Positions 59,401-62,400 of a DNA stretch of 64,000 nt are shown here, in pieces. Source of the stretch: Saccostrea cucullata (Eukaryota); NCBI RefSeq assembly GCF_032062105.1, contig NW_026937967.1, positions 372,001 to 436,000 on the forward strand, given 5' to 3'. Position 1 is the first letter of the stretch; each line of letters opens with the position of its first letter. Made by a program: the position numbers.

Positions 59401-62400
59401 TCTGCTTCAAGAAACTAGACAGAGCCTTTCCTCTTGGAGTCAAAATGCTGACTGACGTTTTTCAAAACCAATTGTTAGACCATTTTACACTGTGACACAA
59501 ATTGTCGATAGACCGGATTTTCCCGTCAATTTCCGATCATGACAAAGAACACACAGCGCGCGGTTATGACCGGTCGGCAGGGGATGCTCACTACTCCATG
59601 ACAACTGATCCCACCTCTGATGTTTTGCATGTCTATGTTTACTCCGCTTCAATTGCATTGCTTTCGTGGATTTTTGAGCTTGAATACTGTATGTTATCTC
59701 CATATATTTCATTGTAATTATCACATAAAAAATGGAGGGGGGGGGGGAGTATTTAACAATTACCAATGAAATCATTCCATTGCCAACCCTAATTTTTCGT
59801 CATTTTCACTGAACCACTTATTGTCATTCACTTCAAATACTGGTATGTGTTCAAGCTTTTTTTAACCAAGACGAGACAAAAATGACATCAGTTCAGAAAA
59901 ATCTCAGCAGGGGTATATTGTTATACATAAATAATCATGTCGCACTTGTATTGCCTGATCAGTGAAACATTAAAATTACCTATTTGTTGCATAATTAAAG
60001 AGACGGTTTCCACTCCTTATCTGAACTCTCAATTACTTAGCAATAAAAGTACAACATGAGATCAGATAAAGTTCAGAGGGCCTTCACAAAACACGAAAAT
60101 AGCATGTAACTAATCATTTCTCCTTGCTTTCACCTTTCATTTTGAATACTCGATATAAAAAGGAACAAGTAACAATTTTTTAACCTTTTTTCTACTTTAT
60201 GAATTAAAAAAAATTACATCCAATGAAGTAAAATTTCTTTAAGAATAAAGTTTTATTTCAAAGTTATTATCATTTACCAAAAAAATTTTATTAGATAACT
60301 TTAAAGCACTGCCCTTTAGCATTTTTTCTACACTTCCATGTGTAAATATATGACACTGCATACTATATACATGATATTAGTAACCGACAAAAGTCGTTAC
60401 ATGCATATTGCATTGTCATTCATTTCTCGGGAAAACACGTATAGAAGAAAACATTTTAGATGCTCCATTATGATCGTGTTCATTTAAAGCACCAGTTTGA
60501 TTATAAATACCATTTTTAAAAGTTATTATTATTTATCATATCATTTTAACAAAATATTTTACTTGAAATTGATATATGTGATTGTTATTTAATTTTGAGG
60601 AAACTTAAGTATTTAGAAAAATTATTTAAGATGCTTAATTCTGAAAATAAAAATTTAAAGCACTATATTTTAGCTTTATTAAACATGCAAATTTTTTAAA
60701 AGGACACTTTGCATAAATATTTATTGCTTAGAAACAACTAATCATGACTTGCAAGTTTCCGATGATTCCAATAATTGTCTTTGATACTCATACATCAAAA
60801 AGTATGTACTTTAATTTCCACAAAAAGAGTCTTTAGTGTGAAAGATGCATGGACTTTACAGCTAAATTTGCACGTTTAATGTTCCAATCAAGCACAGTAA
60901 TTGAAGTAATAACAGTAAAAAATCTACATATATATCATGAAATGCAGGTACACTTATAAGTCCGAGAGATGTAGGAGAAGAAACTGATTTTTACCCGAAT
61001 ATGTATTCAAGATATATCTCGGAGAATTCATTTGTGATTGGAATATTTTTAATTTTAACATATGCTGTTGGTAAGTTTATTATCAATCAATAGTAAAAAT
61101 CAGCGGTAAACAGTATTTTTGTTTTTCCAACTCTGTAAGTGATGTTGAGAAACTAAACAGACTGAATTTTGTTATTCTGGACAAAATAATAATTTCGTGA
61201 GGTGAATTTCAAACAAAAGTGACAGCTTTTAATGTTAACAATGTTTTATATGGAATTTAAACAGGCCCAATATCGTGTACTTCTGATTGTTGTGATGATG
61301 TCAGAACTATAATATGGCTAACTCCAGTTTGCTCTCTATTGGAACTTTTTGCCATGCTGATTTGTTGTGTCATTATAATAATTTGGTACGTATTTTTTGA
61401 AATAATATCTTAAATATATTTAAATATAAAATTTACCTCTTTAGTGGAATGAAGCAAATATTTTATCATGGATTAGGTAAAAAAAAAAAGAGTGTTGTAT
61501 TACATAAATTTGTTGATTTACTTATTTTTTTCAGCTTTGGCAAAAAATTTAATCGAACAGCAATCAATGCTTCAACCTCCGAGAAATGACAACTACAAAG
61601 TGTTTACTTAGAATCAGATTTTATCTATTAACATTTCTTATTCGAAGGATGAATGCATTCAATAGACGTCAGTCACATATTAAATGACTGAAAGAGTTTG
61701 TTTGGAATATGTTTGGAAGCTGTATTTTTTCTGTCACAAGTAGAAGCAGGGCTTTCTAAATATTTGCATTTTTAAAAAAAAATACATGCCTAGTTCAATC
61801 TTTTTTGTTACACCTTGAAAAATGTCATCTTTTACATTTTCAAAACTTTCTAACGCCATAGATTTGAATTAATATGTACATGTTAAAACTTGTATGATAC
61901 ATGTAAAAAACTTAAATTATATTGTATTTTAATGGATGGAGACCAAAAACATTTGGAAAACATTAATCTTTTGTCTTTCAAGTCCTAACTAAATCTCTAT
62001 ATCTGGGACAATTTTCATTCGTAGTACTTCAGTTATAAATTTCTGGCAATTTTCAACATTTGCAACTGGGTGCACTTTCTAATTCTACTGAAAAGTGATT
62101 TTATAATGAGAAATTAAATAATTCTCGCAGATATTTGTCACACGAGTTGGTTTACAGTGCATCTATCAAACTAGGATGTGTATATACAAGCACACACTTA
62201 AATATTTTGACCAATATCATATCTTTGTTTTATTTTTTAAACTTAATTCAACAAATACTGGTGCTTGGAATTAAAACTTTAACTTTCATCTATTTCTAGA
62301 TGTTCCGCAGTGTATGTCAATACTGAAAATGTAAAACCTCGTACATTTTTTGATGTAGCAAGATCACAATATAGCCATTAACCGTAGATGTATTTTGTAT

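What the first reader, a model, noticed from the sequence alone, without database searches (positions are those of the whole stretch)
61001..61589. Hidden 81-aa membrane microprotein absent from the ORF track
The three small exons (70/121/55 nt) give a signal-like N-terminus, a Cys-rich stub of about 14 residues (GPISCTSDCCDDVR), a TM helix with Pro, Glu and extra Cys, and a tail of about 18 aa. The leader exon splices directly onto the juxtamembrane segment, and the 194-bp intron is too short to hold the cadherin-coding sequence. It could be the ancestral module, an adaptor subunit, or a dominant-negative modulator of copies 1 and 2. The tail has no Tyr, so it has no ITAM or ITIM.
Basis: partly seen in the sequence, partly recalled or inferred. 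Interest (0 to 1): 0.75.

Follow-up and report, generated by a model that had tools for sequence, protein, structure and literature searches.

The report
Oyster cadherin-like gene copy without ectodomain
This is the third copy in a row of small oyster membrane-protein genes; it has lost its single cadherin domain and keeps only the leader, membrane helix and short tail, and whether it is still used or is a dying relic remains open.

Summary
Exons 61001..61070, 61265..61385 and 61535..61589 have GT-AG borders, matching phases and 81 open codons. ORF plus splice sites alone is not beyond chance: 23% of 300 random windows allow as much. Homology makes it real.

The window is oyster, not human. 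Copy 2 equals Saccostrea cucullata LOC134249187 and copy 1 equals LOC134249172. Each of the three exons matches the leader, juxtamembrane/TM or tail exon of an oyster family of type I proteins with one cadherin (EC) repeat. A fourth copy's leader lies at 63186..63255.

Copy 3 has no detectable EC coding sequence. Its TM block is 24/32 identical to full-length Ostrea edulis proteins but only 12-13/32 to its neighbours. It is therefore a derived deletion product, not an ancestral module.

It keeps 8/8 invariant juxtamembrane/TM residues but only 4/8 invariant tail residues. No protein model of 73 aa or more holds exon 2.

A still-coding TM-only microprotein (about 0.5) and a young pseudogene (about 0.4) cannot be separated here. 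The joined 81-aa protein was not translated, searched or folded.

The parts
61001..61070 (+). Copy 3, leader exon (ATG, 23 codons + 1 base, phase 1, donor GTAAGT)
   Evidence: sequence. DNA similarity to the copy-4 leader, 0 of 1000 null windows as high; 6/22 identical to O. edulis leaders (p about 0.002-0.003), hydropathy 2.64 over 11 aa.
61071..61264 (+). Copy 3, intron 1 (194 nt), where relatives have intron 1 + EC exon 2 + intron 2 + the 5' part of exon 3. In-frame TAA at 61256..61258.
   Evidence: weak protein-level resemblance only (p 0.10, 0.03), none at DNA level; family profiles find nothing here; 4/24 with the S. echinata protein, p 0.01 alone and 0.05 after taking the best of six.
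61265..61385 (+). Copy 3, exon 2: Ser/Cys linker stub, CCDDVR juxtamembrane motif, TM helix with W, P, E and Cys; donor TG|GTACGT, phase 2
   Evidence: E 2.3e-8 to copy 2. (62% over 42 aa to O. edulis, E 1.9e-14). (24/32 to O. edulis; 8/8 invariant columns kept). (hydropathy 2.94 over 19 aa).
61386..61534 (+). Copy 3, intron 2 (149 nt), at the same codon position (TG|GTA) as the last intron of copies 1 and 2
   Evidence: borderline DNA similarity to the last intron of copy 2 (p 0.044).
61535..61589 (+). Copy 3, tail exon (split Cys + FGKKFNRTAINASTSEK + TGA). Same length as the tails of O. edulis, S. echinata and C. gigas relatives.
   Evidence: 7/17 to O. edulis; keeps 4 of 8 invariant tail columns; p about 5e-5.
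47349..48940 (+). Copy 1 (LOC134249172): leader 47349..47451, EC exon 47801..47968, EC/TM exon 48328..48601, tail 48892..48937 + stop
   Evidence: sequence. (name). P0003 residues 4-96 and 98-112 are 100% identical to 48321..48599 and 48893..48937.
53319..56193 (+). Copy 2 (LOC134249187): leader 53319 (RefSeq start 53358)..53420, EC exon 53959..54126, EC/TM exon 55681..55954, tail 56145..56190 + stop
   Evidence: P0001 residues 79-168 are 100% identical to 55683..55952.
63186..63255 (+). Copy 4, leader exon only (70 nt, MYFCFSMAILISFGILFLSTSGN + 1 base, donor GTAAGT); the rest lies beyond the window end
   Evidence: sequence; 13/22 identical to the leader of S. echinata LOC133195618, none of 20000 null as high. 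(aligned ungapped).

Best explanation
Copy 3 is the third of at least four tandem paralogues of an oyster-restricted family of small type I membrane proteins. The family plan is a leader, one cadherin (EC) repeat split over two exons, a CC-D-D-V-R juxtamembrane motif, a TM helix with invariant Trp, Pro and mid-membrane Glu, and a tail of 16-18 residues. In copy 3 an internal deletion removed everything between the start of intron 1 and the last few codons of the EC-coding part of exon 3. The deletion is inferred, not seen. An AG at the breakpoint now lets the phase-1 leader splice in frame onto the linker/TM exon. That leaves an 81-codon gene for a leader plus a 14-residue Cys-rich stub, the TM helix and the tail. 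I take it as most likely still coding. If made, the protein would enter the secretory pathway and carry only the family's most conserved piece, the juxtamembrane/TM module. It could then act only through that module: by pairing with, or competing for the membrane partner of, full-length family members, as a microProtein-type modulator. Shown: gene anatomy, homology of each exon, absence of the EC repeat, and derived status. Inferred: the deletion mechanism, splicing, translation, and any interaction.
For: Anatomy and phases. Each exon is homologous to its family counterpart, while introns and flanks are not alignable between copies (p 0.14-0.71; one search gave no blastn hit). The paralogues are therefore old, and exon similarity reflects past protein-level selection. 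All 81 codons are open, the stop sits at the family position, and there are no indels in the 32 JM/TM or 17 tail columns. Copy 3 keeps 8 of 8 invariant JM/TM columns, and its 0-3 own-branch TM changes are all hydrophobic-to-hydrophobic. The tail has 5-6 own-branch changes. This unevenness suggests constraint still acting on the TM module. Only 2 of 9 nearby AGs keep the frame, and the one at the homology breakpoint is one of them. The stop lies in the last exon. The family ectodomain is an EC repeat: the family profile against PDB gives Pcdha7 E 1.1e-5 and cadherin-23 E 6e-4. The AlphaFold model's Foldseek matches are cadherin EC domains, best E 3.5e-5, with 140 matches at E<=0.001. phmmer links the family to giant multi-cadherin proteins; 4 of those 11 were scanned and all 4 carry PF00028. 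Derived status: JM/TM identity is 24/32 to O. edulis full-length proteins against 12-13/32 to copies 1 and 2.
Against: No protein of 73-2000 aa in the 5.8-billion-sequence set holds exon 2, although RefSeq models of neighbours copy 1 and copy 2 are there. No ectodomain-less relative turned up among the 21 phmmer hits or the 4 hits to the O. edulis query. Four of the 8 tail residues invariant in O. edulis, S. echinata and C. gigas are replaced (V10I, E11N, F13S, G16E). Copy 3's own branch carries 8-9 unique changes against 1 for O. edulis with S. echinata as outgroup (binomial p 0.02-0.04), but 5-6 against 3 with C. gigas as outgroup (p 0.5-0.7). That fits relaxed constraint. The 8/8 versus 4/8 contrast rests on few sites. 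The new acceptor has a poor pyrimidine tract, and the residue after the likeliest signal cleavage site is Pro (sequence; the cleavage rules are recalled, not computed). An 81-codon spliced ORF by itself is common by chance. No expression data could be consulted.
Confidence: 0.5

Rival explanations
1. Young unprocessed pseudogene. The same deletion killed the gene, and the leader, TM and tail exons are a relic whose frame is still open only because too little time has passed. The in-frame AG is a coincidence.
For: The main functional domain is gone. No protein model was found. Half of the invariant tail residues are lost, and the own branch is accelerated with one of two outgroups. In-frame AGs are not rare (2 of 9), and spliced ORFs of this size arise by chance in 23% of random windows. 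From general knowledge, most truncated tandem duplicates are pseudogenes.
Against: There is no stop, frameshift or indel in 81 codons in a 27% G+C region. The ATG, both donors and both acceptors are intact. All 8 invariant JM/TM residues are kept, while the tail has changed. Uniform neutral decay would not be expected to spare one and hit the other, though the numbers are small.
Confidence: 0.4
2. The leader exon at 61001..61070 is an alternative first exon of the downstream copy 4. Both are phase 1, so it could splice in frame to copy 4's EC exon. The TM and tail exons of copy 3 would then be skipped relics.
For: The copy-3 and copy-4 leaders have the same length (70 nt), phase and donor, and are similar in DNA. 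Copy 4 starts 2.1 kb downstream.
Against: There is no evidence for such splicing. Copy 4 has its own leader with a better hydrophobic core. The reading does not explain the intact TM and tail frames. The rest of copy 4 lies outside the window, so it cannot be examined.
Confidence: 0.05
3. Ancestral minimal module: the leader-TM-tail gene is the original form, and copies 1 and 2 gained the cadherin repeat later.
For: None beyond its simplicity.
Against: Copy 3's JM/TM block and tail group with EC-bearing proteins of O. edulis (24/32) and S. echinata (19/32), not with a basal position. Every other family member recovered, in four species, has the EC repeat or part of it. Homology to the O. edulis protein starts exactly at the acceptor (61267), as expected of a breakpoint.
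Confidence: 0.02
4. Chance ORF: the three pieces are not a gene or gene remnant at all.
For:: 23% of random windows allow an ORF model of this size.
Against: Significant homology of all three pieces, in the right order, phase and spacing.
Confidence: 0.01

Closest known systems
Oyster family of 'uncharacterized' single-EC-repeat membrane proteins: S. cucullata LOC134249187 and LOC134249172, S. echinata LOC133195618, O. edulis LOC125647925 and LOC125647926, C. gigas LOC109620404 and K1QP73
   Same: Leader exon in phase 1; CCDDVR juxtamembrane motif; TM with invariant W, P, V, E; intron at the same TG|GT codon; tail of the same length beginning C-F-x-K-K and ending in K. Sits in the same tandem array.
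   Different: Lacks the whole EC repeat. Half of the invariant tail residues are replaced. No protein model was found.
microProteins (miPs): small single-domain proteins derived from larger multidomain relatives that modulate them by forming heterodimers (abstracts of PMC7534434 and PMC9638782, seen in the listing)
   Same: Small (81 codons), keeps a single module of a larger relative, and arose by duplication plus domain loss.
   Different: The examples in those abstracts are plant proteins. Here the retained module is a transmembrane segment, and no interaction or effect has been shown.
Disulfide-linked TM signalling adaptors of vertebrate immune receptors (DAP12, DAP10, CD3 zeta, FcR gamma); features recalled from general knowledge, not from a call
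   Same: Very short Cys-bearing ectodomain stub, an acidic residue in mid-membrane, and a short cytoplasmic tail (sequence).
   Different: No Tyr, so no ITAM or YxxM. No sequence relationship: the family profile found only cadherins and two antibody chains in the PDB at E<=1. The acidic TM residue is shared with the EC-bearing relatives, so it is not an adaptor speciality.
Membrane-bound C-terminal stubs left after ectodomain shedding of cadherins and protocadherins (recalled from general knowledge)
   Same: The product would resemble a cadherin-type protein after removal of its ectodomain: stub + TM + tail.
   Different: It is encoded as such in the genome rather than made by proteolysis. The tail is far shorter than a classical cadherin cytoplasmic domain.

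Membership tests
Cadherin superfamily (EC repeat proteins) | At least one EC repeat (about 110 residues, beta-sandwich) | tested here: not met
   For copy 3: profiles of both halves of the family's EC repeat hit only copies 1 and 2 among 15,954 six-frame pieces of the window. For copies 1 and 2 the feature is met by profile against PDB, fold and transitive phmmer links, but not by Pfam's own model.
Oyster single-EC-repeat family (LOC134249187-like) | Phase-1 leader exon with hydrophobic core | tested here: met
Oyster single-EC-repeat family (LOC134249187-like) | EC repeat encoded by a 168-nt exon and the 5' part of a 274-nt exon | tested here: not met
   no significant remnant in or around copy 3.
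Oyster single-EC-repeat family (LOC134249187-like) | Juxtamembrane/TM block with invariant C1, C2, V5, W10, P13, V14, E19, I29 | tested here: met
   8 of 8 kept; 24/32 identical to O. edulis.
Oyster single-EC-repeat family (LOC134249187-like) | Tail exon after a TG|GT phase-2 intron; tail with F1, K3, K4, V10, E11, F13, G16, K17 | tested here: inconclusive
   Intron position, tail length and 4 of 8 invariant residues are kept; 4 are lost.
microProteins (miPs) | Small, single module, evolutionarily derived from a larger multidomain relative | tested here: met
   81 codons. Nested among EC-bearing relatives.
microProteins (miPs) | Binds the related larger protein through the shared module and alters its function | not testable with these tools
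   Needs expression and interaction experiments.
DAP12 / CD3 zeta-type TM adaptors | Cytoplasmic ITAM or YxxM motif | tested here: not met
   No Tyr in the tail.
DAP12 / CD3 zeta-type TM adaptors | Sequence relationship to the family | tested here: not met
   The family profile against all PDB chains at E<=1 gave 16 sequences: 13 named cadherin, protocadherin or Cdhr2, one MCG133388 isoform and two antibody heavy chains. No adaptor was among them.
Unprocessed pseudogene | Frame-disrupting lesions or lost start or splice signals | tested here: not met
   None in the three exons. The loss of the EC repeat is a lesion only if the long form is the sole functional form.
Unprocessed pseudogene | No transcription or translation; neutral evolution | not testable with these tools

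The most novel reading that the evidence does not exclude
The invariant juxtamembrane/TM module of this oyster family has a paired extracellular Cys, Trp, Pro and a mid-membrane Glu. It may be a membrane-embedded assembly device that docks the proteins, as disulfide-linked dimers, onto a partner with a basic TM residue. Copy 3 would then be a genome-encoded 'bare' version of that device, kept by selection. That would make it an invertebrate analogue of the minimal TM adaptors of vertebrate immune receptors, or a natural competitor of its EC-bearing sisters.
Probability: 0.12. Interest if true: 0.65.

Novelty: new member of a known kind. Interest (0 to 1): 0.33.

Why it matters
If the short form is expressed and conserved, it would be a clear animal case of a transmembrane microprotein born from a receptor-like gene by loss of its ectodomain. 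It sits next to its full-length sisters, which makes it a natural experiment on what the family's strikingly conserved membrane module does. It would also add an unannotated small gene to an oyster genome. No paper in the searched library names any of the six locus or accession identifiers tried for this family. If it is a relic, it is an ordinary stage of tandem gene-family turnover. Its value is then mainly as a caution: ORF plus splice sites alone do not make a gene in AT-rich genomes.

Tried and rejected
1. 'The 194-nt intron is the decayed EC exon'. A first tblastn alignment ran from copy 1's exon 3 through the intron in one frame, with two in-frame stops. Against null windows the intron part is weak: p 0.10 and 0.03 at protein level, 0.88 and 0.16 at DNA level. 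Family profiles ignore it. The 24 codons before the acceptor match only the S. echinata protein (4/24, p 0.01 alone, 0.05 for the best of six). I treat this as inconclusive. The first half used a wrong frame and is to be disregarded; one search is the corrected run.
2. EC exons of copy 3 hidden further upstream or downstream: none were found anywhere in the window outside copies 1 and 2.
3. Complex prediction of the exon-2 peptide with residues 125-184 of copy 2: no verdict (score 0.02, mark 0.34). It is evidence for nothing.
4. ESM Atlas look-alikes of the O. edulis JM/TM/tail part: best score 0.78, a cluster with the cadherin cytoplasmic family. This is below the level at which shuffled proteins also score, so it is a lead only.
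5. Pfam on single exons and on P0001: no cadherin call.
6. A bacterial-type promoter/terminator scan is irrelevant to a eukaryote.
7. Rfam on the whole window: 0 matches. Tandem repeats in 56000..64000: one small array at 56041.
8. blastn of 59500..63000 against the window: 7 non-self hits, all from an interspersed repeat at 59514..59721, none in the finding.
9. Literature. The S. cucullata genome search gave 9 papers, with nothing relevant among the 8 listed. A search for six locus or accession names of the family gave 0 papers.
10. Codon comparison of the JM/TM block between copies: third-position identity of copy 3 is 14-15/32 to copies 1 and 2. This shows old divergence but does not date the loss of the ectodomain.
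Full report
**What the window is**

The window is AT-rich (25-36% G+C) and has no N. It is oyster, not human. The 184-aa RefSeq protein LOC134249187 of Saccostrea cucullata (P0001) is 100% identical over residues 79-168 to 55683..55952. The 112-aa LOC134249172 (P0003) is 100% identical to 48321..48599 and 48893..48937. Both species used for comparison below are Ostreidae. Nothing here was taken for human sequence.

**The observation**

- Exon 1 is 61001..61070: ATG, 23 codons and one base, donor G|GTAAGT.
- Intron 1 is 194 nt.
- Exon 2 is 61265..61385, after AACAG. 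It holds the stub GPISCTSDCCDDVR and then a hydrophobic stretch with W, P, E and Cys. Its donor is TG|GTACGT.
- Intron 2 is 149 nt.
- Exon 3 is 61535..61589, after a long T-run and CAG. The tail has 18 residues counting the split Cys and no Tyr. TGA is at 61587.
- The phases (1, then 2) fit, giving 81 codons.

No ORF of 90 aa or more lies there. Everything below was done exon by exon. What the whole 81-aa protein would give in SignalP, DeepTMHMM, a structure prediction or an exact-sequence look-up therefore stays open.

**Is it more than chance?**

By ORF and splice sites alone it is not. In 300 random 589-nt stretches of this window, 23% allow a model of up to two introns with 81 or more codons and GTR/YAG sites. 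Homology decides the matter.
- Exon 2 matches the last large exon of copy 2 (E 2.3e-8) and of copy 1 (E 2.8e-6). It also matches Ostrea edulis LOC125647926: 62% over 42 aa, E 1.9e-14, starting at 61267, the first full codon after the acceptor.
- The tail aligns without gaps to the 17-residue tails of O. edulis, S. echinata and C. gigas relatives (7, 6 and 7 of 17). At most 0.0002 of 20000 random open 17-mers do as well.
- The leader is 6/22 identical to the O. edulis leaders (p 0.002-0.003). Its DNA resembles a fourth leader exon at 63186..63255 (score 17; null mean 8.2, maximum 16 in 1000).
- That fourth leader is 13/22 identical to the leader of S. echinata LOC133195618.
- Intron positions are shared. 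The leaders end in phase 1, and the TM exon ends at TG|GTA in all three copies.

**The family**

Copies 1 and 2 share one plan: a leader exon, a 168-nt exon, a 274-nt exon, and a short tail exon.

phmmer of P0001 against 1.84 billion representatives gave 21 proteins at E<=0.001.
- Some are small oyster proteins, named: S. echinata, O. edulis (two loci) and C. gigas (two records). A few are unnamed records.
- Eleven are giant proteins. Four of these were scanned, and all four carry many Pfam Cadherin domains.

Pfam does not call a cadherin domain in P0001 itself or in single exons. Three other lines do support one.
- A profile of seven named family members finds protocadherin alpha-7 EC3 (E 1.1e-5) and cadherin-23 (E 6e-4) in the PDB, over profile positions 21-126.
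- An AlphaFold model has mean pLDDT 64.5, with core blocks at 65-86.
- That model's best Foldseek matches are cadherin EC domains: best E 3.5e-5, 140 matches at E<=0.001, and every listed row from the cadherin superfamily.

**What copy 3 lacks**

Two profiles were built from the named relatives, one for each half of the EC repeat. They were run against 15,954 overlapping six-frame pieces of the whole window, with stops read as X. They hit only copies 1 and 2.

One early alignment suggested that the 194-nt intron is the decayed exon. This did not hold up. At most there is a faint 4/24 match of the last 24 in-frame codons to the S. echinata protein (p 0.01, or 0.05 after correction). An in-frame TAA lies two codons before the acceptor. 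The homology boundary therefore sits at, or within a few codons of, the acceptor.

The simplest history is one deletion running from early intron 1 into exon 3. That is an inference.

**Derived, not ancestral**

In the 32 ungapped juxtamembrane/TM columns, copy 3 has these identities:

| Compared with | Identical columns |
|---|---|
| Two O. edulis proteins | 24/32 |
| S. echinata | 19/32 |
| C. gigas LOC109620404 | 15/32 |
| Copy 2 | 13/32 |
| Copy 1 | 12/32 |

Its tail has the 17+1 length of the first three, not the 15+1 of copies 1 and 2. All those relatives have the EC repeat. Copy 3 thus belongs to an EC-bearing subfamily older than the Saccostrea-Ostrea split and lost the repeat secondarily.

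**Alive or dead?**

For a live gene:
- All signals and 81 codons are intact in a 27% G+C setting.
- Introns and flanks are saturated between copies.
- Eight of 8 invariant JM/TM residues are kept, and the own-branch TM changes are few and conservative.
- The AG at the breakpoint is one of only 2 in 9 that keep the frame.

For a relic:
- The EC repeat is gone.
- Four of 8 invariant tail residues are replaced. The own branch has 8-9 unique changes against 1 for O. edulis with S. echinata as outgroup (p 0.02-0.04). The contrast vanishes with C. gigas as outgroup.
- No protein model of 73-2000 aa contains exon 2, while both neighbours have RefSeq models.
- No ectodomain-less relative appears among the hits. 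The short hits there are N-terminally cut models that still hold part of the EC repeat.

The database negatives are weak. One search also failed to return the O. edulis relative that shares seven 5-residue words, by my reading of the two sequences. An 81-aa relative at 40% identity would fall below the threshold.

I put a still-coding gene at about 0.5 and a young pseudogene at about 0.4.

**How it would work if alive**

The product would have a leader, then a stub of about 14 residues with three or four Cys outside the membrane. The TM follows, with Trp, Pro and a mid-membrane Glu, and then a basic start to a short tail. It retains exactly the part that is invariant across the family. It could therefore only act through that part, by pairing with full-length sisters or by occupying their membrane partner. 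This is the microProtein logic described in the abstracts of PMC7534434 and PMC9638782 (listing). It also resembles DAP12-type adaptors in outline, but it has no ITAM and no sequence relationship to them. The adaptor features are recalled from general knowledge. None of this is shown.

**Not checked**

- RNA-seq, Ribo-seq and oyster genome sequences of other species were not available.
- Paper supplements were not needed.

Noticed in passing
63186..63255 (+): A fourth leader exon (70 nt, phase 1, donor GTAAGT; MYFCFSMAILISFGILFLSTSGN). It is 13/22 identical to the leader of S. echinata LOC133195618. The tandem array therefore continues beyond the window end, and no EC exon of this copy lies before 64000.
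   Followed up: partly
48225..48232 and 48320 (+); 47349..47451; 47801..47968: The RefSeq model of copy 1 (XP_062587532.1, 112 aa) starts at an ATG inside intron 2 and uses an acceptor 8 nt upstream of the one that matches copy 2. It therefore lacks the leader and the first half of the EC repeat. Yet an intact leader exon and an intact 168-nt EC exon lie upstream, in frame with the 48328 acceptor. O. edulis LOC125647926 also has a predicted N-terminally cut isoform (X2, 124 aa).
   Followed up: partly
45972..46388 (+): An ORF with no Pfam family is 52% identical over 110 aa to the C-terminal part of C. gigas K1QP73. The N-terminal part of K1QP73 is a member of the EC/TM family. This points either to a fused gene model in C. 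gigas or to conserved neighbourhood of the two genes.
   Followed up: partly
1400..1770, 9430..9700, 44360..44580, 52400..52630, 55100..55470, 57800..58400, 59500..59720, 63665..63740: An interspersed repeat family in both orientations (70-78% DNA identity over 51-209 nt). Two copies lie between copy 2 and copy 3. It was not classified, and Rfam finds nothing.
   Followed up: no
18393..19925 (+); 2913..4112 (-) and 12955..15111 (-): A single-exon 510-aa ORF with RING, B-box and a weak filamin repeat, which looks TRIM-like. Two long coiled-coil ORFs lie on the minus strand, one with a SOGA domain.
   Followed up: no
48504..48599, 55857..55952, 61288..61383: The juxtamembrane/TM block has 8 invariant columns among the six named family members from four oyster species: two Cys, Val, Trp, Pro, Val, a mid-membrane Glu and an Ile. 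For comparison, the whole-protein alignment A3 of seven sequences has 12 invariant columns in all. Such conservation suggests the membrane segment is itself a functional interface.
   Followed up: partly
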